Under the pieces are notes generated by a model. That model was not told where the DNA came from. It searched no databases and saw only the letters and a program-made list of their open reading frames with translations. DNA of 64,000 nucleotides from a virus: positions 1 to 64,000 of the IMG/VR virus record IMGVR_UViG_3300036859_000186, one strand, 5' to 3'. The position numbers and the translations under genes are program-made. Positions 2,693 to 42,662 of this stretch are shown here, in pieces (positions within the stretch are counted from its first letter, which is position 1; every line of letters starts with the position of its first letter).

Positions 2693-5488
2693 TTAGTGCA
2701 TCTGACCCCATCTGTAACCTCGTTTGGCCTCAGTGAGAATGTTTAGGCATGGTCCCATGTCATAGGAGGCTGGTAGGGCTAGCTCTGGAATGGGTTTCTC
2801 CATTTCTTCCAGCATAACAGCATCCACGCGGTCTGTCAACTCTTCAGGCACTTCTGTGAACAGCTCATCATGGATGAGGAGTCGCAGATACTGTCCGGCC
2901 TCTTCAAAGCGGTCAAAGTAGAGCCTCAGCATGGCCTCTTTGATGATACCAGCCGCTGTGGACTGTGGCCCGAAAGCAATGACCTTGTTAGCGTCGGGTC
3001 CAGGCTCCTTTTGCCACTCTCCCCCCACTTTCTCCCAATCGTAAACGCGGGAGAATCTGTGAACGTAGCCGAATGGGTTTCGGACGAAGCCGTCCTTGTC
3101 TGCTTGGGCCAGAACATCCTTGTGCCACTGCTTGATGCCGGGGAACAGTTCAAAGTAGACCCCCATAACCCGACCAACAAGGGCCACATTATATGAGATA
3201 CCCGTTTCTAGCAGGATCTTCTCGGCTGCGCCCTTTGGACCCTGCATGAAGTTGGCCCCGTGGACCAAATGTTTATAGAGACTGTTACGATCCTTCTTGA
3301 ACTCGCTTTTAATCTCCCCTAAACGCTTGGCTAGCTTATGATCGTCCCACGAAAGGAGGGGTAGATCGTTCGCACTGATACGCCCATCCAGCTGATGCAG
3401 CGCATATGCAGTATAGAAGCTGTGGACATCCATCTTCGCAAGCCGGATATAATCCTTTAGCCTTGCAAAGTAACCCACCAAGACGGCCTCGATACCCGAG
3501 TAGTCCCTAGCCAGGAATATGTGACCTGGACGAGCCACAATCATGTTACGAATGATTGAGTTACGATCATCTGGCCCTGCAGGACGCGGCAGCTGTTGAA
3601 GGGGTGGATTTTGACATGCCGAACGCAGCGTGCTTGGATTATGGGTAAAAGTTGGCTTGATCACACCATCTTTATCCGTAGTGAGTCCGCCACGTATCCT
3701 CCCATTTTCTGTGATCCCAATGTATTTGCTCAGTAGGCCCTGAACTTGGCGGTGTTCGAGGATGAAAGGATACATGCGGTCCTCAGGATACTTCTTGAGC
3801 AGCCGTAGGATGGCCTTCTCATCGAACGTGATGGTGCCCTTCTTCGCGTCTCGGATGGCTTGGTGCTTGACTGCCTTCTGATACGACTGCATGGCCTTGT
3901 TGGAGATTTTGAACTCCAACGGCTTGGCCCAGAACTCCTTGGTGACCTCAATTTCGAGCTTGTCAGCCCCCAAACATGGGTTCTCGGGCTCGCCAGCCTT
4001 CAGTTTCTTCTTCCCAATCGACTTAAAATGGGCCGCTTTGGGCTCTGGAAGGCCGCAGGAGCGACAACCGGGGACCACAACGACTTGAACCACCTTTTGA
4101 AGGCCGTCCGTCGATTTGGGGGTCTTCTTGTAGACTTTGACCTTCCTCACTTCGTTGGGAAGGACGGCTTCCATGCTCTCTTTGATACCAACTAGCTCAG
4201 CAGCTAGCTTCGTCTCAGCCTCATCACGCATCTGACGGTCGAGGAGGACGCCCTGAGAGCGCATGTAAGCGAAGATTTTGTTAAGTTGGATGACATGCCG
4301 GTCAAAGACGTGCCATAGGTCGTTGTTCTTTAGGTCCTCTCTTATGCCAACGTAATTACGTAGCGCCATGTCGGCGTCTTTTGCGTTGTAAAAGGCTGGC
4401 TCAGAGTCTGCGAGGTGCTTCCACATCGAAGAATTTTGAGCGTAGAAAGGTGTGACGAATCCAAGAGCCTTTGGTAGCGACGTGTTAAGGACGTGCCACG
4501 CCAGCATTCCGTCAATAGAGATACCATTGAAGGGCATTTGTGCACGAACGCGTGGATCGTCGTAGTTTTCGTTGTTCCACCCCAGCTTAGCGACGTTTGA
4601 CGTGAAAAGTCGCTCAATATGGGGGATATATTCAGCAGTCCAGGGAACCGAAACAGTGGATGATGGACGATACGAAAAGGAACATCGGAGGATCGTGTAA
4701 TCGTCATCGGACTCCTTGCTTACGGTTTCCTCATCCTTCCCCTTCTTGAAGGGAGTCTCAATATCGTATGAGAGGACGATTTCCGACTCGTCATGGCCCT
4801 CAATGATGCCTAGGAACGTGTCGACCCACGCTCCGAAGTCCTTAGGTTGGGGATCGAGGGAGTATTCGATCTTCTCGTGCTCGTAACCACGTTCGGCAAT
4901 CTCCACCGCACGCTTTGCGGCGAACTGCAAGACGGGAATCAGGTGATTGTAGCCCCTAATGAGGTATGCCGGATGGTAGGTGGCGACGACCCATGCCTCA
5001 TACTTCTGGGACCACATCGGATAGTTGATGTAGTCGTGCTTGAAGAACGGATCTTTGGGATCTTCGAACCCCATGATCCGCATGAACGCAGTTTTGCCCA
5101 GGGTCAGGATGGTGAAGGTCCGACCGTTGGCTTTGGCGGCCTCGCGGGCGCGTGCGTTATCAGCGTCTAGATTCGGGGCACAGTGCTTAATGCAGACTCG
5201 CTCCCAGGGCATCCCCGACAGCTTGTTGTTCGGAGGGCGGCACTTCAGGACGTTCGAAATGGTGAAGTGCTCCCTTTTGAGGCCCACCCGGTTAAGGGCG
5301 TTGAAGAGATAGTGGCCGGACTTGCCCACGAAGGCCATGCCAGCCTTCTCTTCATTCTCACCAAGGGCCTCCCCAACGATCATGACGCCGTATGAGCCAT
5401 CTCCGTCGGGAAAAGAAAAGCCCACCTTCTGACCGTAGGGCGGTTCAAAAAGTGGGCAACCTTCGCAAGTTTTAGGTTTCGGTATCAT
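2693..5488 (-). CDS. polA: DNA polymerase family A with N-terminal family-4 uracil-DNA glycosylase domain and 3'-5' exonuclease
   Basis: UDG: CEGCPL, VGEALGENE, FVGKSG, CRPPNN, YHPAY; Exo: YDIET, YNAKDAD; Pol: DYSGIE, KHLVHGANF, IHDE. Confidence 0.95.
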   Translation of the reverse strand: MIPKPKTCEGCPLFEPPYGQKVGFSFPDGDGSYGVMIVGEALGENEEKAGMAFVGKSGHYLFNALNRVGLKREHFTISNVLKCRPPNNKLSGMPWERVCIKHCAPNLDADNARAREAAKANGRTFTILTLGKTAFMRIMGFEDPKDPFFKHDYINYPMWSQKYEAWVVATYHPAYLIRGYNHLIPVLQFAAKRAVEIAERGYEHEKIEYSLDPQPKDFGAWVDTFLGIIEGHDESEIVLSYDIETPFKKGKDEETVSKESDDDYTILRCSFSYRPSSTVSVPWTAEYIPHIERLFTSNVAKLGWNNENYDDPRVRAQMPFNGISIDGMLAWHVLNTSLPKALGFVTPFYAQNSSMWKHLADSEPAFYNAKDADMALRNYVGIREDLKNNDLWHVFDRHVIQLNKIFAYMRSQGVLLDRQMRDEAETKLAAELVGIKESMEAVLPNEVRKVKVYKKTPKSTDGLQKVVQVVVVPGCRSCGLPEPKAAHFKSIGKKKLKAGEPENPCLGADKLEIEVTKEFWAKPLEFKISNKAMQSYQKAVKHQAIRDAKKGTITFDEKAILRLLKKYPEDRMYPFILEHRQVQGLLSKYIGITENGRIRGGLTTDKDGVIKPTFTHNPSTLRSACQNPPLQQLPRPAGPDDRNSIIRNMIVARPGHIFLARDYSGIEAVLVGYFARLKDYIRLAKMDVHSFYTAYALHQLDGRISANDLPLLSWDDHKLAKRLGEIKSEFKKDRNSLYKHLVHGANFMQGPKGAAEKILLETGISYNVALVGRVMGVYFELFPGIKQWHKDVLAQADKDGFVRNPFGYVHRFSRVYDWEKVGGEWQKEPGPDANKVIAFGPQSTAAGIIKEAMLRLYFDRFEEAGQYLRLLIHDELFTEVPEELTDRVDAVMLEEMEKPIPELALPASYDMGPCLNILTEAKRGYRWGQMH

Positions 5489-9477: not shown

Positions 9478-9845
9478 GCTTCCTCATCACTTCGTATGGA
9501 GATCCAGGCTCTTCACCTTCCAGTTGTCCCATGTGGGTTACTTCAATAGCTCCCACACCCTCCATGAAGGATACACCATCGGTAAGTTTGTTGATGAGGG
9601 TGTCGATACTTGGTCCTTTTGCTCCTCGTTCACATTCAATGGCGATAAGGAAGCCGTGGGTTTCAAGCGGCACCTCTTCTCCACTATCTTTACGTTGTAA
9701 CATCCCTTCAAATCCCTTCTTCGTAGGGCTTTCTCCAATGCAACCTCATCTTTGTTAGCACGAACGATGACGGTCTTTTTGGTAGAATGCCAACTCGCTT
9801 TGATTACGTAGTCGTATTCCATCGAGTCCAACGATGATAGCACAC

Positions 9846-10010
9846 CTAATAGGGTCTGTCAAGGCACCAGTCGTAATCTGGAGTCCACTTGTGGGTGTCG
9901 CTCCATTTCTTGGGTTTAGGACCGTAGTGTCGAGTCTTATAGACTTTTGAGCGTCCACACACAGGACACTCAAACACTTCGATCAAGCACCAATATTTAC
10001 GTTTCTTCAT
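9846..10010 (-). CDS. small zinc-ribbon protein
   Basis: CPVCG; overlaps upstream stop. Confidence 0.5.
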   Translation of the reverse strand: MKKRKYWCLIEVFECPVCGRSKVYKTRHYGPKPKKWSDTHKWTPDYDWCLDRPY

Positions 10011-10558
10011 ATGGAGTCCCTTTCGTAGACCGGCGGTGCCCACTCTCCGACACGCGCGGGCAGGCGCGAAATCGCGTCTTCCAAGGTTATCGGAGTGTAA
10101 TTGATCCGTTCGACGGAGACATTGTAATACGGACCGGCCGGTGAAGGCTTTTCGTGAATGTGACCATGCAGGTTGCCCCTAAATCGCCCCAATGAATCGG
10201 GATGAATAGGTGCATGGGTGAGCATGGTATTGTTGAGGACCCGCATACCGTAGATTTCCGAGAATCCGGCTGCAAGATAAAGTCGGGTGCGGAAGATGTC
10301 ATGGTTCCCTCGCACAAGGCGCTTGTGGCCGTGTAGACGCTTGCACAGAGGCAAAGCATTGGCGACCATAGCTACGTCGCCTAGATGGTAGACATGGTCC
10401 TGTGGGCGAACCACAGCGTTCCACCGCTCAATCATGTGCTCGTCCATCTCATGGACATCTTTGAAGCCAGGACGGACGTAGACGCCATGAGAGTTGTGGA
10501 ACTTGAGAATGTTGGCGTGCCCGAAGTGCGTATCGGACACGACCCAAACGGTTGGCAC
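10007..10558 (-). CDS. calcineurin-like metallophosphoesterase
   Basis: SDTHFGH, HLGDV, GNHD, HGHIH. Confidence 0.9.
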   Translation of the reverse strand: MPTVWVVSDTHFGHANILKFHNSHGVYVRPGFKDVHEMDEHMIERWNAVVRPQDHVYHLGDVAMVANALPLCKRLHGHKRLVRGNHDIFRTRLYLAAGFSEIYGMRVLNNTMLTHAPIHPDSLGRFRGNLHGHIHEKPSPAGPYYNVSVERINYTPITLEDAISRLPARVGEWAPPVYERDSI

Positions 10559-10577: not shown

Positions 10578-10654
10578 TGGTAGCGGGTGCCGGAATCGAA
10601 CCGACCATACGTGGCTTATGAGACCACCGTGTCCACCATGTTCACCTACCCGCA
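10578..10654 (-). tRNA. tRNA with CAT anticodon (Met/fMet-like or Ile2)
   Basis: Cloverleaf; GTGGT-CTCATAA-GCCAC; TTCGATT T-loop; ACCA end; U1-U72 mismatch. Confidence 0.85.
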
Positions 10655-10658
10655 AAAA

Positions 10659-10753
10659 TGGCACGGATGAAAAGAGCAGCAGGGATGCGGGTTTGAACTG
10701 CGCGGCTTATGAGGCCGTTCAACCATGATAACCCTACAAAACGACCCGTGTCA
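10659..10753 (-). ncRNA. Y-RNA-like ncRNA copy 1 (carries CAU anticodon stem-loop)
   Basis: CACGGGT-CG...GTAGGG-TTATC...CCCTGC...ATCCGTG; apical CGGC-CTCATAA-GCCG. Confidence 0.65.
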
Positions 10754-10757
10754 AAAA

Positions 10758-10834
10758 TGGTGGAATCGACAGGAATTGAACCTGCAACCCCCTGCGTGCA
10801 AGGCAGGCGCTCTACCATGTTGAGCTATCCCCGC
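10758..10834 (-). pseudogene. tRNA-Ala(TGC)-like gene with defective acceptor stem
   Basis: Intact D, anticodon and T arms and ACCA, but 5' acceptor strand lacks about 3 nt. Confidence 0.7.
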
Positions 10835-10838
10835 AAAT

Positions 10839-10914
10839 TGGCCCAATCGGCACGGATTGAACGTGCGACCTCCGGCTCTTCAGACCAGCGCTCTACCAGC
10901 TGAGCTACGATTGG
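10839..10914 (-). tRNA. tRNA-Phe(GAA)
   Basis: CCAATCG/CGATTGG acceptor; CTGAAGA loop; CCA. Confidence 0.9.
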
Positions 10915-10920
10915 AAAGGC

Positions 10921-11004
10921 AACACGGACAAGTTGGGAATGAGGAAGTGGGAGCCATCACGCTTCCCTGTTTGCGATGATAATCCTCACTCATCGGCCCG
11001 TGCT
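10921..11004 (-). ncRNA. Y-RNA-like ncRNA copy 2
   Basis: GCACGGGC-C-GA...GAGTGAGGA-TTATC...TTCCTCATTC...CTT-GTCCGTGT. Confidence 0.7.
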
Positions 11005-11010
11005 TAAAGC

Positions 11011-11136
11011 TTTGCAGTCATCACCACGCGCTACCCATCCCGGAGTCCACTACTATGTAGTAGGTTACTGTTTCGTGCATACCGGGCTTTAAGATCGGGC
11101 CTACAAACCCTCAAGCCTTGTCCGTGTGACTGCAAA
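11011..11136 (-). ncRNA. unknown structured RNA inside tRNA cluster
   Basis: 10-bp perfect closing stem TTTGCAGTCA/TGACTGCAAA; inner CCGG and CTACTA/TAGTAG stems. Confidence 0.45.
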
Positions 11137-11137
11137 T

Positions 11138-11215
11138 TGGGTGCCCCCGGCTAGATTCGAACTAGCACTGAACCGCTTCTGAGGCGGATATCTCTGCCAT
11201 TTGGATTACAGGGGC
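11138..11215 (-). tRNA. tRNA-Leu(CAG) with short variable loop
   Basis: GCCCCTG/CGGGGGC acceptor, A73; CCGC-CTCAGAA-GCGG; TTCGAAT; ends ACCCA. Confidence 0.8.
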
Positions 11216-13320: not shown

Positions 13321-13384
13321 AGCTTAGCACAAACGGCCCAAGAATGTCAAGTCCTTGACATACAGGCGGTTACCATGCTATGAT
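13321..13384. promoter_or_regulatory. back-to-back divergent sigma70-type promoters
   Basis: TGTCAA-GTCC-TTGACA; + strand TTGACA-18-TATGAT, - strand TTGACA-18-TAAGCT, both with TG extension. Confidence 0.7.
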
Positions 13385-19714: not shown

Positions 19715-20659
19715 CTACTCCCTTCCCTGCGCCCATTGCCTAATGGCGTTGGCGTAAACGTCCACGCTTCCACCCTCAAGACCAGGAGCCCGGTTGACTT
19801 CCAGAACGATGAGGCTGCCATCGCGCTTTTCGCCGATGTCCACCGCACCGAAATCGAGACCAAGGGCCTCGACGGCTTCGTGGGCCAGATCACGGTGGGC
19901 CTGTCTAGAGGTTTGCCCATCGTAAAGGATGCGCCAACCCCCGTCCCATGACCTGATCCATGCGTGAGCACGTCGAGTCCCATTGGCACCGTCGAGAGAG
20001 AAGCCCTCTCTCAATGCCTTGACGCCAGCCCGGAGGCTGCGTCCCTTGAAGGAGTGAACCCGGACTTCCTGCACGAGGTCTTCCTTCTTTGCGTAGTAGT
20101 CGCCGCCACGGTTGGCGAGCAGGTCGTTCCCACCGACGTGACTGTTGGAGCGGCTGAGCCATTCTCCCACAGGTCGGCCCGGTTGTGCAACCGGAGCCGC
20201 GATTGCCAGGGCTCCAGTCAGTCCGTTCAGCTTGGCGAGGAGGTCGCGGACACCGTCCACGAGTGGTCCTCGACGGGGAAGAGGTCCCGCAGGGAGTGTC
20301 AGATTGACCAGTTCCTCGGCCGCTTCCTGGGCATCGCGCATGATGGCGATTGCAGGATCGACCGCAGCAGCCACCGGAGGAGGCGCTGCTGGGCGCTGGA
20401 GTGAGACCTGAATTGTTGGAACCCCTTCCCGCGCCAAGAGTTCGGCGTCGGAAAACTTGTTGCGGATGGTCGTGCCGTTCAGAACACGCACACCACGGAT
20501 TTCTGGGACCGCTTCACCCCAGGCAATGACCACGTCACCGGCACGGGCCTTGCGTTCGATGGGAACCTCAGTTCCTCGAAAGCGGCGAGCACCCTGTCCA
20601 AGCGCTTCCGCAAGCAGACGAGCCCCCGTAGAGGCGTTCTTTCTGTAAACGTAAATCAC
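19715..20659 (-). CDS. ATP-grasp peptide ligase (RimK-like)
   Basis: NKF...GVPT, EVRVH, LGLDFGAVD, LEVNRAPGL. Confidence 0.85.
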   Translation of the reverse strand: MIYVYRKNASTGARLLAEALGQGARRFRGTEVPIERKARAGDVVIAWGEAVPEIRGVRVLNGTTIRNKFSDAELLAREGVPTIQVSLQRPAAPPPVAAAVDPAIAIMRDAQEAAEELVNLTLPAGPLPRRGPLVDGVRDLLAKLNGLTGALAIAAPVAQPGRPVGEWLSRSNSHVGGNDLLANRGGDYYAKKEDLVQEVRVHSFKGRSLRAGVKALREGFSLDGANGTRRAHAWIRSWDGGWRILYDGQTSRQAHRDLAHEAVEALGLDFGAVDIGEKRDGSLIVLEVNRAPGLEGGSVDVYANAIRQWAQGRE

Positions 20660-25866: not shown

Positions 25867-26907
25867 TCATGATCGAGCCACCGTCTTCTGGAGGAAGTTT
25901 TCCCATCCGCACTCGTGGCCCTCGGGCAGCGTCGTCCAATGCTTCATGGGATCATCAGGGAACCATGCTTCGAGTCCGTCGGTATCGATCTTGGCAACGA
26001 ACTTCTGGAACTGCTTCAGTTCGTGACCAGCCGATAGCCCTCGGTCCGTATTTCCTCCGACGTGGGCTTCGAGGAATTGGGAGAACTTCTCGAAGTTTGC
26101 CTTGGCAAGCCCCACGTCATTGAGGTTGATGGCCCGTCGAACCCTTGGGAGCGGCACCATTCCACGGAGAGTCTTCTCCGCTTCCCAGCGCTTCTCGCCC
26201 ATGATGTCGCTCACCAAACGCCCCAACCCCATCACGAAGGACATGAGCGGGTAAGCTCGAAGCCAGGTGTTGGAGAGCGTTCGGTATTCGACGCCGAAGG
26301 GTTGCTCACGGAACTCACCAGCCCGTCCGTAGACGCGCCGACGAGTTCGCATGAGAGGGTGTCGGTCAAACAGCACCGCTGTGTTGCCGATCACGATGTC
26401 ACAGAGCGCAACGAAGCGCTCATAGCCATCCTCCTCGTGAAGGAGTTCGTTGATGTTGCCGAAGTGCAGGTGCCCACCAGCGGACCGCGTTCGATACGTG
26501 AACGGGTTCACACGGACACCAACCTGCCGCTTGTAAATGCTCTTGCTTGGATTGCACCCAAGCATCTTGACCCGATCAGGCATGGCGTCCATGTCCCGTT
26601 TCGGGATGCGAATCACCGGAGTCCAACAGACCGTGAGGTCGGTGTCTTCCAGTTTGTGCTGAAGGCGACGCATGATGTCGGCCATCATATTGCCAATCTC
26701 AGCACGACAGAACGCTGCCTGTGGGTTGATCTCCAGCTGGATGCCGTCTCGGACGATCTTGCCGAGCCCCTTGAGTTTCATCCCTGCTTCTGGAATCAGC
26801 TCGGACGATGGAACGATGTGACCGTTCCGCGCCAAGAACAACTCTGGGTCCGAACCGAACGATGGATCGGAGTTGTTCTCCACCAATTTCGCATACTGCA
26901 AAGCCAC
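25867..26907 (-). CDS. phiEco32-like COOH-NH2 ligase (type 2)
   Basis: GSDPE, DGIQLE, GCNP, RSAGGHLH, RRRVYGRAG, GVEYRTLSN. Confidence 0.9.
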   Translation of the reverse strand: MALQYAKLVENNSDPSFGSDPELFLARNGHIVPSSELIPEAGMKLKGLGKIVRDGIQLEINPQAAFCRAEIGNMMADIMRRLQHKLEDTDLTVCWTPVIRIPKRDMDAMPDRVKMLGCNPSKSIYKRQVGVRVNPFTYRTRSAGGHLHFGNINELLHEEDGYERFVALCDIVIGNTAVLFDRHPLMRTRRRVYGRAGEFREQPFGVEYRTLSNTWLRAYPLMSFVMGLGRLVSDIMGEKRWEAEKTLRGMVPLPRVRRAINLNDVGLAKANFEKFSQFLEAHVGGNTDRGLSAGHELKQFQKFVAKIDTDGLEAWFPDDPMKHWTTLPEGHECGWENFLQKTVARS

Positions 26908-26976
26908 GACTTCCTCCCCGCCGCGAAAATCGCGGCACCAACGCTGCCTTTACTCAGCACTGGCTTGTGTGAAATG

Positions 26977-27041
26977 TGTGGACAAGAGATTGCGAGGGAC
27001 CATTTTTATCGCCAAAGATAACGGTCCCAATTCGGCCCACA
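26977..27041 (-). ncRNA. Y-RNA-like ncRNA copy 3 (minimal form)
   Basis: TGTGGGC-C-GAA-TTGGGACC-GTTATC-TTTGGC-GATAA...GGTCCC...CTT-GTCCACA. Confidence 0.75.
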
Positions 27042-27112
27042 ACGGTTTCTGACACACAAAGGGATTTCAACGGCCCAGTCTAAGGCCCCTTGTAGCTGAC
27101 TCCGCCGACTGA

Positions 27113-27541
27113 CTAGTAACGTTCTGTCGTCTTGCTGACTTTCCCTTCCTTCGTCCACTGCGCGATCAGCTTGTTCAGCTGAGTGTAGTCCGGGTTCCAC
27201 ACCACCACGGTTGAGCTGTGGGGAGGATGCACCGGATTCTTGACGAACTCAGAGCGAATGACCGCTCCGAGCTTGTGCTCGGTGACGAACGCCATGAAGG
27301 CGTCCGCATAGAACTTGTGTTCCCCGAGCCACTTCTTGTAGTTCGTGCCCCAGTCCGTCACGTCGGCGAGACACAAGATGATGCACGGCGACCGCATACC
27401 CTTCTTGAGGGCGGCAGCCAGATACGTCTCAAGACTGTCGGCATGGCACAGCCCGCCGATCTCCTGGACGCCACAGTTCTCGACGTAACCCGTTTGTCCC
27501 ATGGTCAGCGCTCTCCTCGGTGAAAGTGATGGCTCATACAT
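27113..27541 (-). CDS. hypothetical protein, paralog of 19358-19711
   Basis: NCGVQEI...LGAVI...KNP...W; start overlaps Ro60 stop. Confidence 0.6.
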   Translation of the reverse strand: MYEPSLSPRRALTMGQTGYVENCGVQEIGGLCHADSLETYLAAALKKGMRSPCIILCLADVTDWGTNYKKWLGEHKFYADAFMAFVTEHKLGAVIRSEFVKNPVHPPHSSTVVVWNPDYTQLNKLIAQWTKEGKVSKTTERY

Positions 27542-29145
27542 TAGACTCTCTCCGCGATGAAGTCGCTGACGATCTGGGGAGCGGCAGAATCGAATCCAGC
27601 CACGTCCAGCGTGCGACGGTCGTCCGGGTCGGCGATGGTGAAGTTCGTCGAGGTCATACCCATGACCACTTCGCAAGCGGCCGGGACGCCCATCTTCTGG
27701 CGATACTGACGGAGGGCTTGCGACGGATGGATGGCACCGGCGTAGGTCTCGTTGTCGGTGATGATGACGAAGCCATCGACCTCAACGCGGTTTTCCATGG
27801 CCCACAGGACGGGCTGAGCGCAGTCGGTGCGGCCGAAGTTGTTGCGCTGTGCAGCTCGGCACACCTCATCGAGGCGCATCTTGGGGGTGATGCCGAGGTC
27901 CACGAAGCGGTCGCAGAACCCGAACGTGTAGTAGTCCTTCTCGACCTTGGCGGTTGCCATCGCCATAGCAGCAGCACCCTCACAGGCACTCAACGGCATG
28001 TTGGCAATTGCGGCTGTCCGCATCGAGCCAGACACGTCGATGCCGAAGACGATCCGTTTGCCGGTCGGCTTCAGAGACTTGAATGCCAGGTAGAACGCAT
28101 CATCGAGAGCGTCCACAACAGCAGGCACTGGCTTCCACGCACCATCACCCCTGACGCCGTGACCAGACGCGTAGGTCTTGAGGGCGATGAGGATCTCGAT
28201 GGGGTGGACGCGTGCCTTGTTCAGCCATTCCTTGTCACCAAGGACAGCGACAACCTTGCGCGAGGCGTCCGAGAGGGGCGCGAGAAGGCCACACTTGGAG
28301 AGGTTGCCCAGGTTGCGGATCATCGCAGTTGCAGGCATCTTCTCCAAAAGAGCAGCCCACACGTCGGGGTCCTTCAGGAATTCGGTGGGGACCATCTCTC
28401 GCGTGAGGCCGTGATTCTGGATGAGTCGGCAGAGGTCACGGGCTGACTCGGCTGACTTGGCAGCCTCAAAGCCTACGATGACCTGGGGAAGCGTGGGTCC
28501 GTCTGCCTTGTGTCCCTCGATGCCATCAACGCACCATTTGAAGATAGCGTTCCGAGCTTCATCTGAAGTCTTCGGGTGCGCCAATCTGAGGACATCCGCA
28601 TTGGACCAGCCGTCCCTCGACTGATACTTGACGACGTGTTGGGCGAGCTTTTCCGTCGGAAGGTCAAGATACCAGTTCGCCAGGGAACTCCGAAGGCCGC
28701 GCCCCAACCCACGAAATGTCGTGACGAAGGCCATGAAATGAAAGAGGTGCGTGGGGATTCGGCAGACCTTCGGGAGAGCAGCCAGTGCCAGCTTTCGAGT
28801 GGCAGGATCTGCAGCAGACGCTGCAAGAGCCAAGGCGAAAATCGCAGGATCGTTCTTCGGTGCTCGTCCTTCATCGGATACCTCCACGATGGTGCGGACC
28901 ACTCTGGCACCATCCGCTTCGATACACCGGATGGTTCGTGCCGCATTCTCCCTCGTCAGTTTCTGAGGAGACGCGTAGTAGCTCCCACCCTCACTGCCGA
29001 GGATCAGGAACCGCAGGAACGCTGCGAAGTCGTCAAGGGCATAGACGTAGCCCCCGGCGCTGTTCTGAACCTGAGCCTCACCCAGGAGTGGTGAAGTCTG
29101 AGGCTGGGCAACACGCGGCCCAATCGAGCTGAACGGTCTCTTCAT
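27541..29145 (-). CDS. rsr: Ro60/TROVE RNA-binding protein (Rsr ortholog)
   Basis: NSAGG, RFLILGSEGGSYY, KYQSRDGWS..DVLRLAHPK, vWA DVSGSM, TDCAQP, TDNET, SIA-like TIADP. Confidence 0.97.
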   Translation of the reverse strand: MKRPFSSIGPRVAQPQTSPLLGEAQVQNSAGGYVYALDDFAAFLRFLILGSEGGSYYASPQKLTRENAARTIRCIEADGARVVRTIVEVSDEGRAPKNDPAIFALALAASAADPATRKLALAALPKVCRIPTHLFHFMAFVTTFRGLGRGLRSSLANWYLDLPTEKLAQHVVKYQSRDGWSNADVLRLAHPKTSDEARNAIFKWCVDGIEGHKADGPTLPQVIVGFEAAKSAESARDLCRLIQNHGLTREMVPTEFLKDPDVWAALLEKMPATAMIRNLGNLSKCGLLAPLSDASRKVVAVLGDKEWLNKARVHPIEILIALKTYASGHGVRGDGAWKPVPAVVDALDDAFYLAFKSLKPTGKRIVFGIDVSGSMRTAAIANMPLSACEGAAAMAMATAKVEKDYYTFGFCDRFVDLGITPKMRLDEVCRAAQRNNFGRTDCAQPVLWAMENRVEVDGFVIITDNETYAGAIHPSQALRQYRQKMGVPAACEVVMGMTSTNFTIADPDDRRTLDVAGFDSAAPQIVSDFIAERV

Positions 29146-30141: not shown

Positions 30142-30158
30142 GAGCTACCTCAAAAGTG

Positions 30159-30225
30159 CGTCGGATAAATTTCGTAGGCAGCGGTTTTATCTTAGAAGGA
30201 TAACGCTACCAGAGCGACCCGACAC
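30159..30225 (-). ncRNA. Y-RNA-like ncRNA copy 4 (carries UCU anticodon loop)
   Basis: GTGTCGGGT-CG...GGTAGCG-TTATC-CTTCTAA-GATAA...CGCTGCC...TTT-ATCCGACGC. Confidence 0.7.
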
Positions 30226-30233
30226 GTCAAATT

Positions 30234-30338
30234 TGGTGGAGGCTTGATAGGCATATGGACAGAGCGGAGCGGTGATGAGGAGACACAATGCTCGTCAATC
30301 GTTGCTGCGTAATCTGCCGCCAACCCACAACAGCCCCC
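30234..30338 (-). ncRNA. 105-nt RNA with alanine acceptor stem and CCA end
   Basis: GGGGGCT/AGCCTCC-A-CCA: G3-U70 and A73. Confidence 0.55.
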
Positions 30339-30346
30339 ATAAATAG

Positions 30347-30447
30347 TGGAGCCAAGGACAAGTGTTTGCAGAGGGGTATTCCTGTGCGCTGCCTTTCGGC
30401 CCGCTTCTAGGTGCCAGATAACCCTCATGCGTCGGCCCTAGGCTCCA
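30347..30447 (-). ncRNA. Y-RNA-like ncRNA copy 5
   Basis: GGAGCCTAGGGC-C-GA...GAGGG-TTATC...CCCTC...CTT-GTCCTTGGCTCC; GCC-GAAA-GGC tetraloop. Confidence 0.7.
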
Positions 30448-30593: not shown

Positions 30594-31037
30594 CTATTCA
30601 TCCCTTATGGTCTTGTGCCAGAAGGCAACGGTGTTCTTGGTCCGCTTGTTGAAAAATTCGAACCCCTTCCACCAGCCAAACTTTTCGAGGATGTGAGCCT
30701 CAGCTGGGTTGCCAGTCATGTTGACCGTAGCAGCGAGGCTCGAATATCCGAACTCTCTGGCGATGGCTTCCTTGAAGGGCATCAGTGCTTGAGCAATACC
30801 CTGCTTTTGATGCTTCGTTTCGACCCATGTCTTGGTGCTCACGAGCACACCGCAACAGTTGACCTGCTCGACGAGGGTAAAGCCGCATGCCCGTTCGTTG
30901 TTCAGGAAGCCCGTGAACTCCAACAGGAACGGACTCTTGCGGATGCGGATCTGCACGTCGCCCCACTCGTAGAACTCCTCACTGAGGGTTCTAATAGATG
31001 CAACGGCCTTTGGCACGTCACGAATTGAGAATGGCAT
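30594..31037 (-). CDS. GNAT-family acetyltransferase
   Basis: HQKQGIA acetyl-CoA motif; N...ILEKFGW. Confidence 0.75.
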   Translation of the reverse strand: MPFSIRDVPKAVASIRTLSEEFYEWGDVQIRIRKSPFLLEFTGFLNNERACGFTLVEQVNCCGVLVSTKTWVETKHQKQGIAQALMPFKEAIAREFGYSSLAATVNMTGNPAEAHILEKFGWWKGFEFFNKRTKNTVAFWHKTIRDE

Positions 31038-31251: not shown

Positions 31252-32054
31252 CTTTCGCAAAATGCGCGAAGTAAAATTCCCTAGATTTTGCCACCAAGAC
31301 GAACGATTTCGAGTTCGACTTCCTCAGCGGCTTTAGTTATGGCCTTTGCTACACACTGATGGCCATCTTCATCTGCTTTCGTGGCAAGGCGAGCCAAGAC
31401 ATCCCAATAGCCACTATCAGTCACGATCTTATCGAGTTCCACTTTGTGTTGGTGTCGCATGATTCTCTCGACAGTCAGGGCTATTTCTACAAGCACAATT
31501 CTTTGCAGATTGTGTGCCTCTGAGAATCCTCTGACACTCCGCGACGATGGCGTCTTCGGTTGACAACGAGTAGTGCTCCATCTCACAGCCTCCAGTGTAG
31601 ACCACGTAGAAGACCAGAGCGATGAAGACTACCCGATGCCAGTGAATCATCTACTTGACCGATCCCAGCTGAATGAGCGGCGCCGTCGAGGTGAGAAGTG
31701 ACGCGATGAACAATCCTGCCCAGAACTTCGATCTCATGACATGAGCCTCCAGAGGTAACGAAACAAGCGGACGAACCAGAAGCCTGGCGCGGCCACAGCG
31801 AGTATGACACCCGCCAACACAGCGGCATCATTGGGTCGGCTGATCAGGTAGAGCGCTTGGGTGAGCGCCAGTGATGTGAGCAGCACGAGAAGGACTTCAC
31901 GAAGGACCCGAAGGACGGACCAGTATGTCGGCATAGTGTCTCCAAACACGAAAAAGGGAGGTGACATGGATGAGTGGTTGTCCAGGGAACATTTGGAAGG
32001 TAACCCTAGAACGCCGACCCATGTCATCTCCCCAGCGGGGCACAACGGCAACTT

Positions 32055-32819
32055 CTAACGACTTGGCATGAGAATTGGATGACCCTCGTCACCAACCTCC
32101 TTGTAAAGCGCTTCTTTCAGCTGATACATAGCTCGTGCCCACAGCGCTACTGCGTCCGGTGAGGCCGCTTGCAGCACCATTGGGAATTCCCGAGCTGTCT
32201 TCTTGAAGTAGTTCTCTGCCCAACGACGGGCATCCTTCGGCTTGATTCGACAGCCCTCAGGCTTCGTGAGCATTCGAGTCATGTCGTTCAGGTTGTCGGC
32301 CCGGTCTAGAGTCTTAAGTGAGGCCGCGTCCTGATCGTTCGATATCTTCGAGTAGTAGACCACCTTCATGGCCGCTTGAAGGTCTTCGGGCGTCTCGTCC
32401 TTCCAATCCTTCGTGAGGAGCATGACAAGATCGACCGTTCGGTCTGGGAACTTTAACGCAATGAGGTCGTGCTGCATGATATAAGTGTCTTCCACCACAT
32501 CGTGGAGCAATGCTGCTGCCTGTGCTTCCTCATTGAGGCCGATGTCACGAGCCATCTCGAACACCCGAATGGGATGCACGATGTATGGGTCATCGAAGGC
32601 TTTACGCTTCTGTGAGATGTGTGCAGCCGTCGCACACTCCAGCGCTACATTGATGAGCGTATCGCCTTCAGGTTCAGCCACAGGAATCTCCGTATAGGGT
32701 GGTCGCGTCCTAATCAAGTGGTGCTTGCAGACAGGGCAGTCGCCCCAGCTGTAAGTCTCTGAATGGACGGGGTGAGCGATGGGGATTAGGCACCACTCAC
32801 ACCACAATTCATCTGCCAT
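32055..32819 (-). CDS. HD-domain (p)ppGpp hydrolase-like protein (Mesh1/SAH type)
   Basis: AH..Q.RK, PYIVHP, AALLHDVVED, DRADN. Confidence 0.85.
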   Translation of the reverse strand: MADELWCEWCLIPIAHPVHSETYSWGDCPVCKHHLIRTRPPYTEIPVAEPEGDTLINVALECATAAHISQKRKAFDDPYIVHPIRVFEMARDIGLNEEAQAAALLHDVVEDTYIMQHDLIALKFPDRTVDLVMLLTKDWKDETPEDLQAAMKVVYYSKISNDQDAASLKTLDRADNLNDMTRMLTKPEGCRIKPKDARRWAENYFKKTAREFPMVLQAASPDAVALWARAMYQLKEALYKEVGDEGHPILMPSR

Positions 32820-32872
32820 AGCACTAGTTCCTTCGAGGAACAAAAGCTTTTCGTCGAGTGAGCGCCAAGGCA

Positions 32873-33313
32873 TCAGTGCTTGATGTCGTCGCCGCTGATG
32901 TCGATGTCCACCGCTGGCAACACCTCAGCCACATCGCTCTCGACAACCTCACCATCGATCACTGGCTCGGGCTTCTGTCCAGCCTTCGGATCTTTCGGAC
33001 GAGGCCGATTGAAGTAGGTCGTCCAGATGACCTCACGGTCTTCCTTCGAGAACGTCTCGTCACCAGTTGCGGCAAGAGCGAAGGTGATGGCCGATTTACG
33101 GCCCTTTTCCTTGTTGAAGACATCCTGACGAGAGCACACCGCAGTCGCAGAGGTGATGAGGTTCGCCGTGACGAGCTTGCCGTCCTTCTGAACGGTCTCC
33201 CAGATGTCACAGATCGTCGTTCGACGCCCCGGTCGCTTTCCGCGTGGTTTCTCTTGCTGGCGTTCGAATGCCAGAGCAATCGTTCTGTTCTTTGGCAATG
33301 TGACGTGTATCAC
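32873..33313 (-). CDS. conserved phage protein
   Basis: AVCS.QD.FNKEKGR motif. Confidence 0.6.
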   Translation of the reverse strand: MIHVTLPKNRTIALAFERQQEKPRGKRPGRRTTICDIWETVQKDGKLVTANLITSATAVCSRQDVFNKEKGRKSAITFALAATGDETFSKEDREVIWTTYFNRPRPKDPKAGQKPEPVIDGEVVESDVAEVLPAVDIDISGDDIKH

Positions 33314-33361: not shown

Positions 33362-33490
33362 TGGTGGGTCGTGGTGGATTCGAACCTGCCCAGATCCCTC
33401 TCCCGTGGACATCTATCGTTACCCCACTACTGTTGCCGAGGAGGCCCCAGCAGTGACGATAGCCCAGCCGTCCCAGCTGGCTGACGACCC
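33362..33490 (-). ncRNA. tRNA-like RNA with anticodon arm replaced by long hairpin
   Basis: GGGTCGT/ACGACCC-A-CCA; D arm; GGTTCGAATCC T loop; extended CTATCG...CGATAG helix. Confidence 0.7.
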
Positions 33491-42633: not shown

Positions 42634-42662
42634 TTGACAACCCCCATATATCGTGTTATAAT
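42634..42662 (+). promoter_or_regulatory. consensus sigma70 promoter for late operon
   Basis: Perfect TTGACA-17-TATAAT with TG extended -10. Confidence 0.85.

What the first reader, a model, noticed from the sequence alone, without database searches (positions are those of the whole stretch)
10659..10753. Y-like RNA displaying a Met(CAU) anticodon stem-loop next to tRNA(CAU)
Seen: the apex is CGGC-CTCATAA-GCCG on a TTGAAC/GTTCAA stem. The segment CTCATAAGCC is identical to the anticodon region of the adjacent tRNA (10578-10654), and the RNA ends in CCA. Known: tRNA-fMet is a target of enteric VapC toxins. Inference: a second, independent anticodon-decoy head on the same scaffold, possibly captured from the neighbouring tRNA.
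Basis: partly seen in the sequence, partly recalled or inferred. Interest (0 to 1): 0.78.

Follow-up and report, generated by a model that had tools for sequence, protein, structure and literature searches.

The report
Phage Y RNA with tRNA-Met-like tip
A 92-base stretch inside a soil phage's tRNA gene cluster is a divergent copy of the phage's Ro60-partner "Y RNAs" whose tip is a reworked piece of a methionine-type tRNA, showing how such RNAs may acquire tRNA look-alike heads; whether it acts as a bait for tRNA-reading enzymes is untested.

Summary
On the minus strand, 10750-10662 folds into a 7-bp terminal stem, a 6-bp second stem, UUAUC, and a hairpin tipped by GGC-CUCAUAA-GCC. CUCAUAAGCC is identical to the anticodon region of the adjacent tRNA(CAU). 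CCA follows the terminal stem.

The window is a 76-kb phage contig that encodes Ro60. A covariance model built only from Ro60-adjacent RNAs of other phage contigs finds exactly six hits here. This element is the weakest (23 bits, E about 0.002; the others score 39-48; noise is 9 or less). It is therefore a divergent Y-RNA family member and probably a paralogue of its neighbour at 10921-11004.

Its tip aligns with the neighbouring tRNA-Met from D loop to T loop (p about 0.001), so a tRNA(CAU) origin is likely.

- The tip stem is only 3-4 bp, with pair probability about 0.5.
- The CCA belongs to a 9-nt direct repeat (CCAUUUUUG) that flanks the element.
- A near-consensus promoter (TTGACA-18-TATCAT) lies inside it.

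Anticodon-like loops (CU-NNN-AA) recur in this RNA family, including three other CAU heads. Earlier notes of this scan report the same theme on other phage DNA. The decoy function, the VapC link and an enteric host have no support here. No orthologue or RNA data were available.

The parts
10752..10760 (-). 5' copy of the direct repeat CCAUUUUUG. It comprises the CCA end and trailer of the upstream tRNA-Ala-like gene.
   Evidence: Read. An identical 9-mer occurs at 10653-10661.
10725..10754 (-). Promoter-like site: -35 TTGACA (10754-10749), 18-nt spacer, -10 TATCAT (10730-10725). The predicted start is near 10718, inside the apex.
   Evidence: scores it 11 of 12. The genome holds 5 sites at 11/12 or better, against 0.35 in simulations. 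A sister site TTGACA-17-TATCAT lies at 9862-9834.
10742..10750 (-). Lower-stem 5' strand CACGGGU plus the handle motif GGGUCG with bulged C10743.
   Evidence: CM R2 alignment; pair probabilities of 0.92 or more.
10727..10737 (-). Upper-stem 5' strand GUAGGG followed by the family motif UUAUC.
   Evidence: The family consensus is AGGGUUAUC.
10685..10726 (-). Apical module resembling tRNA(CAU): UUGAAC, GGC, CUCAUAA (loop 10713-10707), GCC, GCGCA bulge, GUUCAA, then ACCCGCAU.
   Evidence: Local alignment to tRNA-Met gives p about 0.001. 14 of 16 identical in repeat family D5. Loop unpaired at P >= 0.92 for C-A-U (0.76-1.0 across the 7-nt loop); tip stem formed at about 0.5.
10662..10684 (-). Upper-stem 3' strand CCCUGC (10684-10679), linker UGCUCUUUUC, and lower-stem 3' strand AUCCGUG (10668-10662).
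10653..10661 (-). CCA (10661-10659) as part of the 3' copy of the direct repeat CCAUUUUUG. tRNA-Met starts at 10654.
10578..10654 (-). tRNA-Met(CAU), initiator-like with a 1:72 mismatch. It is the likely donor or relative of the apex.
   Evidence: ARAGORN; Rfam tRNA 39.1 bits.
10921..11004 (-). Sister Y RNA (E2) with the same lower stem CACGGG/CCGUG. It carries the full Ro-type motif GGGCCGAUG and ACUUGUCC.
   Evidence: R2 48.4 bits; descriptor hit.
26977..27041 (-). Sister Y RNA (E3). Its apex is UUAUC-UUUGGC-GAUAA.
   Evidence: R2 39.3 bits.
30158..30225 (-). Sister Y RNA (E4). Its apex is UUAUC-CUUCUAA-GAUAA: a 5-bp stem and a 7-nt loop.
   Evidence: R2 40.2 bits; apex survey.
30347..30447 (-). 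Sister Y RNA (E5).
   Evidence: R2 42.6 bits.
31962..32026 (-). Sister Y RNA (E6).
   Evidence: R2 42.5 bits.
27541..29145 (-). Ro60/TROVE protein gene (534 aa), the presumed partner of the RNA family.
   Evidence: PF05731 hit; homologues at up to 63% identity over 96-100% of the length; 'Ro-like RNA binding protein' in actinobacteriophages.

Best explanation
The element at 10750-10659 (minus strand) is a divergent sixth member of this phage's family of Ro60-partner Y RNAs.

Shown:
- It has the family scaffold. This is a terminal helix with GGGY[C]G pairing to RUCC, a second helix, and UUAUC at the start of the loop.
- It shares its terminal helix sequence with the neighbouring copy at 10921-11004.
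- Its helices are kept through compensatory changes relative to that copy.
- Its apex resembles the adjacent tRNA(CAU), from D loop through anticodon arm to T loop, with three deletions.

Inferred:
- A Y-RNA paralogue in the tRNA array acquired, or retained from a fuller tRNA-like module, a tRNA(CAU) core. That core is now refolded as a rod tipped by the loop CUCAUAA.
- It is transcribed with the tRNA array. tRNA-processing enzymes release it: RNase P at the start of tRNA-Met, and 3' trimming at the same CCAUUUUUG trailer used by the upstream tRNA-like gene.
- It docks on phage Ro60 through the handle.
- It presents a tRNA(CAU)-type anticodon loop to a protein that reads or cuts that loop. This is the same logic as sister RNAs that carry other triplets.

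My odds:
- Family member by descent: about 0.85.
- tRNA(CAU)-derived apex: about 0.75.
- Made as a discrete Ro60-bound RNA: about 0.45.
- Bait or tether for an anticodon-reading protein: about 0.2.

The DNA of the element also carries a probable sigma-70-type promoter that reads into tRNA-Met.
For: Context:
- The phage encodes a full-length Ro60.

Family:
- A motif descriptor finds 5 minus-strand copies with TTAYC 10-11 nt after GGGYCG. Simulations give a mean of 0.15 and a maximum of 2.
- CM R2 was built only from 87 Ro60-adjacent RNAs of other viral contigs. It gives six hits in the window. This element scores 23.2 bits (E = 0.002) and the next hit scores 9.2 bits.
- The family structure is backed by covariation. 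94.6% of cells are paired. The score is 0.841, against 0.06-0.15 for slid controls. The Y:R pair is C-G in 93 sequences and U-A in 40.
- Relatives with GGGUCG followed by non-A bases exist.

Apex:
- Apex against tRNA-Met scores 23, against a null of 11.6 +/- 2.0 (p = 0.001). The seven other tRNAs give p = 0.02-0.9.
- The left flank alone gives p = 0.006.
- Anticodon-type loops are enriched in family apices. There are 15 YU...R. loops and 10 CU...AA loops, against 0.33 and 0.05 in shuffles.
- Other CAU heads sit on Y handles at L203:2990-3127 (5-bp stem, inside a tRNA array), L206:137-279 and L118:9601-9678.

Folding:
- The loop is predicted unpaired and the scaffold helices formed.

Literature:
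- A competitive-inhibitor role of YrlA towards an anticodon nuclease has been suggested (PMC7790460).
Against: - It is the weakest of the six CM hits.
- It lacks the CGAAG / ACUUG part of the Ro-type motif; it has CGUUUUG / UUUUC instead.
- It lies 17 kb from the Ro60 gene, whereas relatives cluster within 2-3 kb of theirs.
- The fold is not more stable than shuffles (z = -1.28; apex z = -0.16).
- The tip stem is only 3-4 bp with pair probability about 0.5, against 5 bp in tRNAs and in sister E4.
- The CCA is explained by a flanking direct repeat and is not a family trait.
- A promoter inside the element would start transcripts within the apex. Those transcripts could not form the scaffold.
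- No orthologue was found, so conservation of the apex could not be tested.
Confidence: 0.5

Rival explanations
1. Relic plus promoter. The element is a decaying chimera of a Y-RNA paralogue and tRNA(CAU) sequence, left by recombination in the tRNA array. What selection keeps today is the internal promoter TTGACA-18-TATCAT and the leader of tRNA-Met, not a Ro60-bound RNA.
For: - The promoter site matches 11 of 12. The genome holds 5 such sites against 0.35 expected, and a sister site carries the same -10.
- Given the family's UUAUCAU, a perfect TTGACA at the right distance is unlikely by chance (my estimate: about 7 in 10,000 per element).
- It has the weakest CM score, a degenerate Ro motif, an unexceptional fold and a marginal tip stem.
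- 9-nt direct repeats flank it, as expected of an insertion or duplication scar.
- The neighbouring tRNA-Ala-like gene is also defective.
Against: - All three helices are intact despite many substitutions relative to the paralogue E2. Three of the six upper-stem pairs and the Y:R pair of the lower stem differ on both sides from E2 (compared by eye). Free decay should have broken them.
- UUGAAC/GUUCAA is a perfect 6-bp helix that the tRNA donor does not have.
- The site lacks the TGn extended -10 element and the 17-nt spacer typical of the phage's other candidate promoters.
- Promoter and RNA gene are not mutually exclusive.
Confidence: 0.3
2. Unusual tRNA-like molecule. The element is a rod-shaped tRNA mimic with a 7-bp acceptor-like stem, a CCA end and a CAU anticodon loop. 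It is processed, and perhaps charged or modified, like a tRNA, independently of Ro60.
For: - It has a 7-bp terminal stem followed by CCA and the same trailer as the neighbouring tRNA.
- It occupies a tRNA slot in the array.
- The apex is related to tRNA-Met.
- Another rod with G3.U70, A73 and CCA lies at 30338-30234.
Against: - Neither ARAGORN nor Rfam tRNA gives a hit, even at E <= 10.
- It has no D or T arm and no discriminator base.
- The acceptor-like stem carries the Y-family handle.
- The CCA is explained by the direct repeat.
Confidence: 0.07
3. Chance. The element is an ordinary spacer that resembles both the Y scaffold and the tRNA loop by accident.
For: - The fold z-score is not significant.
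- CM E-values from the shortened calibration are rough.
Against: - There is a clear score gap, 23.2 against 9.2 bits.
- It shares the CACGGG/CCGUG stem and UUAUCAU with E2, 170 nt away.
- The tRNA-Met alignment gives p about 0.001.
- It has the same strand and context as the five other copies.
Confidence: 0.05

Closest known systems
Bacterial and phage YrlA Y RNAs (Rfam RF02553; Chen et al. 2014, PMC4201824; Wang et al. 2018, bioRxiv 10.1101/312249)
   Same: - Ro60-partner RNAs encoded in genomes that carry rsr.
- Terminal stem with a GNCGAA-type motif resembling vertebrate GGUCCGA.
- The effector module mimics tRNA.
- They are known from mycobacteriophages.
   Different: - Published YrlA has T, closed-acceptor and D arms in permuted order, and 'lacks the anticodon loop' and a free CCA end.
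- This element has none of those arms. Instead it shows an anticodon-type loop, and CCA follows its stem.
- Rfam YrlA does not hit it. The phage's only YrlA-like hit is 36197-36300 at 34.8 bits, below the cut-off of 69.
Hairpin-type Y RNAs: S. Typhimurium and M. smegmatis YrlB, D. radiodurans Yrn2 (PMC4201824)
   Same: They are second Y RNAs of a genome that fold as a long hairpin without a full tRNA-like domain. More than one Y RNA per genome is the rule.
   Different: [quoted passage not shown] Here the tip is a 7-nt CUCAUAA loop on tRNA-derived sequence, and the gene lies in a tRNA array 17 kb from rsr.
D. radiodurans Yrn1
   Same: It is modelled with the RNA ends at the acceptor position and a middle stem-loop at the anticodon-arm position (5-bp stem). 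That is the same orientation as in this element.
   Different: The Yrn1 'anticodon loop' has 6 nt, and T-arm and D-like features are present. There is no sequence relation to this element.
Thermus phage phiLo Ro60 with Yrl1/Yrl2 (PMC12135203)
   Same: A phage-encoded Ro60 has two phage-encoded Y-like RNAs upstream of the gene. They form a stem-bulge-stem with a CGAA motif, and binding was shown experimentally.
   Different: No anticodon-type heads or tRNA-array location are described. This element lacks CGAA.
Vertebrate Y RNAs and nematode sbRNAs (Kowalski and Krude 2015, PMC4726728)
   Same: They have a bulged-C lower helix, an upper helix, and a conserved UUAUC at the start of the loop. The phage family keeps GUUAUC at the same place.
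   Different: - Rfam Y_RNA (RF00019) gives no hit in this genome.
- The review states that bacterial Y RNAs are not homologous with the vertebrate clades.
- Function in DNA replication is eukaryote-specific.
Phage tRNAs that counter tRNA-cleaving host defences (recalled from memory, not looked up here)
   Same: These are phage-encoded RNAs that offer an anticodon loop to host nucleases.
   Different: Those are complete, decoding tRNAs. This element cannot decode and carries a Ro60 handle.

Membership tests
   23.2 bits, E = 0.002, full model 1-62. It is sixth of six hits and the next hit scores 9.2 bits. In a 1.1-Mb search it falls above E = 0.01.
   GGGU[C]G pairs with AUCC. The family has C-G in 93 and U-A in 40 sequences.
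   The element has CGUUUUG and UUUUC. Several relatives of the GGGUCG subclass also lack the A's, so this weakens membership without excluding it.
   GUAGGG/CCCUGC followed by UUAUC. TTAYC lies 10 nt after GGGYCG, as in the other copies.
   The strand is the same but the distance is about 17 kb. Relatives sit mostly within 0.1-3 kb. Exceptions exist: G002:38520-38614, and four Y RNAs in a tRNA array in L203.
   This needs co-immunoprecipitation or EMSA.
YrlA (Rfam RF02553) | Score at or above the gathering cut-off of 69 bits; permuted T arm, closed acceptor and D arm | tested here: not met
   No hit on the element at E <= 10. The 18.7-bit hit at 10805-10874 spans two adjacent tRNAs and is an artefact of their arrangement.
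Metazoan Y_RNA (Rfam RF00019) | Score at or above the 38-bit cut-off | tested here: not met
   No match in the genome at E <= 10.
tRNA (Rfam RF00005 / ARAGORN) | Cloverleaf with D, anticodon and T arms | tested here: not met
   No call by ARAGORN or by Rfam tRNA at E <= 10. Only the anticodon-type loop, a T-loop-like heptamer UUCAAAC and a 7-bp terminal stem plus CCA are present.
Anticodon-arm mimic | 5-bp stem closing a 7-nt loop of the form Y-U-NNN-R-N | tested here: inconclusive
   The loop CUCAUAA fits and is predicted unpaired. The closing stem is 3-4 bp with pair probability about 0.5.
Sigma-70-type promoter | TTGACA, 16-18 nt, TATAAT-like hexamer, directed at downstream genes | tested here: met
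   11 of 12 with an 18-nt spacer, pointing at tRNA-Met and the downstream gene at 10558-10007 (Pfam: no hit). This is consensus evidence only; activity was not testable.

The most novel reading that the evidence does not exclude
Phage Ro60-partner RNAs form an evolvable panel of baits that share one Ro60 handle and carry exchangeable tRNA anticodon heads. This element records how a new head arises: recombination with a tRNA gene inside the phage's own tRNA array. The result is a CAU (initiator/Met-type) bait, released by the tRNA-processing machinery, that protects the matching tRNA from a host anticodon nuclease or hands that nuclease to Ro60-linked decay.
Probability: 0.17. Interest if true: 0.8.

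Novelty: new variant of a known kind. Interest (0 to 1): 0.5.

Why it matters
Published bacterial and phage Y RNAs mimic the body of tRNA. They are reported to lack the anticodon loop and a free CCA end, and what their tRNA-like module binds is an open question.

In this phage lineage many Ro60-adjacent RNAs carry a 7-nt loop with the fixed flanks of an anticodon loop and a variable middle triplet. Some full-length members look like complete permuted tRNAs.

The element studied here adds two things:
- a head that is demonstrably related to a neighbouring tRNA gene;
- a location inside a tRNA array.

If these heads are read by anticodon nucleases or tRNA-modifying enzymes, the Ro60/Y-RNA particle of phages would be a player in the phage-host contest over tRNA cleavage. 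The long-standing question of what Y-RNA effector modules bind would then become directly testable with defined baits.

This particular copy is the weakest and most ambiguous example. The theme itself has already been noted by this scan on other phage DNA.

Tried and rejected
Looking for relatives and orthologues:
- Synteny through the neighbouring gene product (window 10007-10558, minus strand; Pfam: no hit). 80 related loci were found but none shares the tRNA array.
- An exact 20-mer of the apex in viral contigs found nothing.
- A single-protein Ro60 search for close relatives in viral contigs found nothing.
- Two metagenome scans found nothing: an apex pattern and a tRNA-Met pattern. No orthologue of the element could be examined.
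The Ro60 homologues on 70-100-kb contigs from the large protein collection could therefore not be inspected.

Expression:
- No RNA holder is listed for this DNA. The single holder is a soil-metagenome DNA run that may be the source.

Family models:
- Rfam tRNA, YrlA and Y_RNA do not hit the element.
- MAFFT alignments of the six copies were not structurally coherent. I therefore seeded a model from one foreign sequence and iterated.

Apex comparisons:
- The apex compared with 130 other Y-RNA apices scores at most 17-18 (p about 0.02 each). This is not significant after multiple testing. It includes a tempting look-alike in L131:9061-9175.
- The apex compared with the CAU-headed L203 RNA shows no similarity beyond the loop.

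Pattern scans for CAU heads:
- In the GGGCCG class, 3 of 4 hits were random, with no model hit.

CCA:
- CCA as a family feature is rejected: 4 of 133, the chance level.

Technical:
- One script call returned no answer and was repeated in smaller form.

Full report
**Observation.** On the minus strand the stretch reads as follows.
- A 7-bp terminal helix: CACGGGU 10750-10744 with AUCCGUG 10668-10662.
- A 6-bp second helix: GUAGGG 10737-10732 with CCCUGC 10684-10679.
- UUAUC at 10731-10727.
- An apical hairpin in which UUGAAC (10722-10717) pairs with GUUCAA (10698-10693). Inside it, GGC and GCC close the loop CUCAUAA (10713-10707).
- A 5-nt bulge (GCGCA) on the 3' side.

CUCAUAAGCC is identical to the anticodon loop and 3' stem of the adjacent tRNA-Met(CAU), 10654-10578. 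Over 16 nt the two are 14/16 identical. A 10-nt common substring arises in 0.35% of shuffles. CCA (10661-10659) follows the terminal helix directly.

**Context.** The window is most of a 76,344-bp viral contig with direct terminal repeats. The only sequencing run holding this DNA is a soil metagenome.

On the minus strand lies a gene array:
- tRNA-Cys, tRNA-Gln and tRNA-Leu;
- a 223-nt gap;
- tRNA-Phe;
- a tRNA-Ala(UGC)-like gene with a shortened 5' acceptor strand;
- the element;
- tRNA-Met.

The phage encodes a full-length Ro60/TROVE protein at 27541-29145. Its closest isolate relatives are the 'Ro-like RNA binding proteins' of Gordonia and Mycobacterium phages, at 44-48% identity.

**A family of Y RNAs.** Earlier notes of this scan on the same genome proposed that several minus-strand hairpins share one architecture. 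I tested this three ways.
- A simple descriptor asked for GGGYCG, then TTAYC, then RTCC with Y:R pairing, plus an outer stem. It finds five copies, all on the minus strand and all with TTAYC 10-11 nt after GGGYCG. First-order Markov simulations of the genome give a mean of 0.15 and a maximum of 2. A sixth copy at 30347-30447 has a mismatch in the outer stem.
- I collected 80 viral loci that encode Ro60 relatives. I seeded a covariance model from one foreign RNA (L144:9686-9756) and gathered 87 hits. All but one (the reverse strand of the seed RNA) lie on the Ro60 strand, and most sit within a few hundred bases of the gene. I rebuilt the model as R2 from these alone.
- On 133 distinct family members the two helices are 94.6% paired. 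The covariation score is 0.841, against 0.06-0.15 when partners are slid. The Y:R pair is C-G in 93 sequences and U-A in 40.

The handle matches the Ro-binding motif of the literature. The bacterial form is GNCGAAN0-1G, which resembles vertebrate GGUCCGA with a bulged C (PMC4201824). The UUAUC at the start of the loop matches the motif conserved in vertebrate Y RNAs and nematode sbRNAs (PMC4726728).

**Membership of this element.** With filters off, R2 gives exactly six hits in the window.

| Element | Position | Bits |
|---|---|---|
| E2 | 10922-11003 | 48.4 |
| E5 | 30352-30442 | 42.6 |
| E6 | 31964-32024 | 42.5 |
| E4 | 30159-30224 | 40.2 |
| E3 | 26976-27042 | 39.3 |
| This element | 10751-10661 | 23.2 (E = 0.002) |
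| Next best (noise) | 19893-19922 | 9.2 |

The element has the GGGU[C]G/AUCC helix, the upper helix and UUAUC. It lacks CGAAG and ACUUG; it has CGUUUUG and UUUUC instead. Other members of the GGGUCG subclass also vary there.

It shares its terminal helix (CACGGG/CCGUG) and UUAUCAU with E2, 170 nt away, so the two are probably paralogues. Between them the Y:R pair and three upper-helix pairs differ on both sides while pairing is kept (read). That argues against free decay.

Against full membership:
- the low score;
- the 17-kb distance from rsr (relatives cluster by the gene);
- an unexceptional fold (z = -1.28, against -2.4 to -4.0 for the five sisters).

**The apex.** A local alignment of the 42-nt apex against the phage's eight tRNAs singles out tRNA-Met. 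It scores 23, against a null of 11.6 +/- 2.0 (p = 0.001). The others give p = 0.02-0.9.

The alignment runs in native tRNA order with three deletions:
- D loop (AUGGU.GA.AC);
- anticodon arm;
- T loop (GUUC.A..CCG).

The flank 5' of the shared 10-mer is significant on its own (p = 0.006). The 3' flank is not. No other Y-RNA apex is as close.

The head is therefore probably derived from tRNA(CAU).

The second route is plausible because full-length relatives are built as handle, UUAUC, anticodon-type hairpin, variable region, T arm, closed acceptor and D arm. That is a complete permuted tRNA. Two of them carry CUCAUAA:
- L203:2990-3127, with CAACC-CUCAUAA-GGUUG, inside a 12-tRNA array;
- L206:137-279.

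L118:9601-9678 has CUCAUAC.

**Anticodon-type loops in the family.** Among 133 distinct apices, RNAfold predicts 34 seven-nt hairpin loops that are not T loops.
- 15 fit Y-U-NNN-R-N and 10 fit CU-NNN-AA, against 0.33 and 0.05 in shuffles.
- The middle triplets vary. The ten CU-NNN-AA loops carry GCU, GUU, UGU, GAA, UCA, UCU and UGA; looser Y-U-NNN-R-N loops add UAA and CAU.
- The stem is usually the 5-bp UUAUC/GAUAA.

Relatedness of the sequences is not controlled in this test. Still, fixed flanks with a free middle is the pattern of anticodon loops. Earlier notes of this scan describe the same theme in other phages. They are unchecked AI notes, and my census is an independent partial test.

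In this element the loop is predicted unpaired (P >= 0.92 for C-A-U). The tip stem is short and forms only about half the time.

**The CCA.** The 9-mer CCAUUUUUG occurs at 10760-10752, where it is the CCA end and trailer of the tRNA-Ala-like gene. It occurs again at 10661-10653, where it supplies the 'CCA' of the element and the first base of tRNA-Met. A second 9-mer, CCAAUUUGC, flanks the unit made of the 223-nt gap and tRNA-Phe.

So the CCA is either a duplication scar or part of a shared tRNA 3'-processing signal. In the second case the element would be trimmed like its neighbours. CCA after the stem is not a family trait: 4 of 133, the chance level.

**A promoter inside the element.** On the minus strand, TTGACA (10754-10749), 18 nt, then TATCAT (10730-10725) matches the sigma-70 consensus at 11 of 12 positions.
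- The genome holds five sites at 11/12 or better, against 0.35 in simulations.
- A sister site TTGACA-17-TATCAT lies at 9862-9834.
- The -10 hexamer is the family's UUAUCAU. A perfect -35 hexamer at the right distance is unlikely by chance.
- Transcripts from it would start near 10718, inside the apex. They would serve as a leader of tRNA-Met and could not form the Y scaffold.
- The site lacks the TGn element and the 17-nt spacer of the phage's other candidates.

This is the main rival reading. It is compatible with a dual use of the DNA.

**Mechanism.** My best account is this. A Y-RNA paralogue sits in the tRNA array and is transcribed by read-through. RNase P (at tRNA-Met) and 3' trimming at the shared trailer release it. 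It docks on phage Ro60 through its handle and presents a tRNA(CAU)-type loop.

- Shown: the family, the scaffold, the tRNA relation, the promoter consensus and the repeats.
- Inferred: expression, Ro60 binding, and any partner of the loop.

A competitive-inhibitor role for the tRNA-like Y-RNA domain towards an anticodon nuclease has been suggested for Salmonella YrlA. VapC cleavage of tRNA-Met/fMet is cited there (PMC7790460). Nothing here ties this phage to enteric hosts or to VapC.

**Comparison and novelty.** Published YrlA 'lacks the anticodon loop' and a free CCA end (bioRxiv 10.1101/312249). Hairpin-type YrlB and Yrn2 have small pyrimidine-rich loops. Yrn1 has a 6-nt 'anticodon loop'. 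Thermus phage phiLo Yrl1/2 bind its Ro60. In three library searches I found no paper describing anticodon-type heads on Y RNAs.

I class the element as a new variant of a known kind. It is the weakest example of the theme in this genome.

**Limits.**
- No orthologue of the element was found.
- No RNA run was listed.
- E-values of my models are rough.

Noticed in passing
window 10725-10754 (-), 9834-9862 (-), 13355-13384 (+), 42634-42662 (+); genome 72761-72789 (+): Near-consensus sigma-70 promoters (TTGACA, 17-18 nt, TATnnT, often preceded by TGn) are about 14-fold enriched over simulations in this phage. One of them lies inside the element studied.
   Followed up: partly
window 10761-10831 (-): This tRNA-Ala(UGC)-like gene scores 48.8 bits with Rfam tRNA but is not called by ARAGORN. 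Its 5' acceptor strand is 2-3 nt short, leaving about 4 pairs that include G3.U70, followed by A73-CCA.
   Followed up: partly
window 11005-11137 (-): This is a 133-nt structured stretch 5' of Y RNA E2. CACGGACAAG (11127-11118) is perfectly complementary to the 3' strand of E2's Ro-type helix (CUUGUCCGUG), giving an alternative pairing. The whole 223-nt gap folds with z = -2.87.
   Followed up: no
window 10653-10661 / 10752-10760 and 10833-10841 / 11132-11140: Two pairs of 9-nt direct repeats start with the tRNA CCA end (CCAUUUUUG and CCAAUUUGC). They flank, respectively, the element and the unit made of the 223-nt gap plus tRNA-Phe. They are either duplication scars or a shared 3'-processing signal.
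   Followed up: partly
window 36197-36300 (-): A sub-threshold Rfam YrlA match (34.8 bits, full length) has a T arm, a closed acceptor hairpin and a D arm. It lacks the GGGYCG handle of the six Y RNAs, and model R2 does not hit it.
   Followed up: partly
window 30234-30338 (-): A rod-like RNA lies between Y RNAs E5 and E4. Its ends form GGGGGCU/AGCCUCC with G3.U70, then A73-CCA (alanine identity elements). It has no D or T arm.
   Followed up: no
window 33362-33490 (-): A tRNA-like sequence has a 7-bp acceptor (GGGUCGU/ACGACCC), ACCA and a UUCGAAU T loop. A long multi-helix insert sits where the anticodon arm should be.
   Followed up: no
L100:9762-9893, L111:11855-11979, L203:2990-3127, L206:137-279: Full-length Y RNAs of related phages read: handle, UUAUC, anticodon-type hairpin, variable region, T arm, closed acceptor, D arm. 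This is a complete permuted tRNA opened near position 26, unlike the published YrlA model, which has no anticodon loop.
   Followed up: partly
alignment A7 (133 distinct phage Y RNAs): GUUAUC directly after the upper helix is nearly invariant. It sits where vertebrate Y RNAs and nematode sbRNAs carry their conserved UUAUC. Together with the bulged-C helix, this makes these phage RNAs look more metazoan-like than the literature on bacterial Y RNAs suggests.
   Followed up: partly
L131/L200 (IMGVR_UViG_3300020020_000028, about 51.0-53.3 kb) and L203 (IMGVR_UViG_3300010396_000087, 2706-3239): One related contig carries at least 13 Y RNAs in tandem upstream of Ro60. Another carries four Y RNAs inside a 12-tRNA array.
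   Followed up: partly
window 25867-26907, 30594-31037, 32055-32873 (-): Neighbours of Ro60 include a phiEco32-type COOH-NH2 ligase, a GNAT acetyltransferase and an HD-domain protein (Pfam).
   Followed up: no
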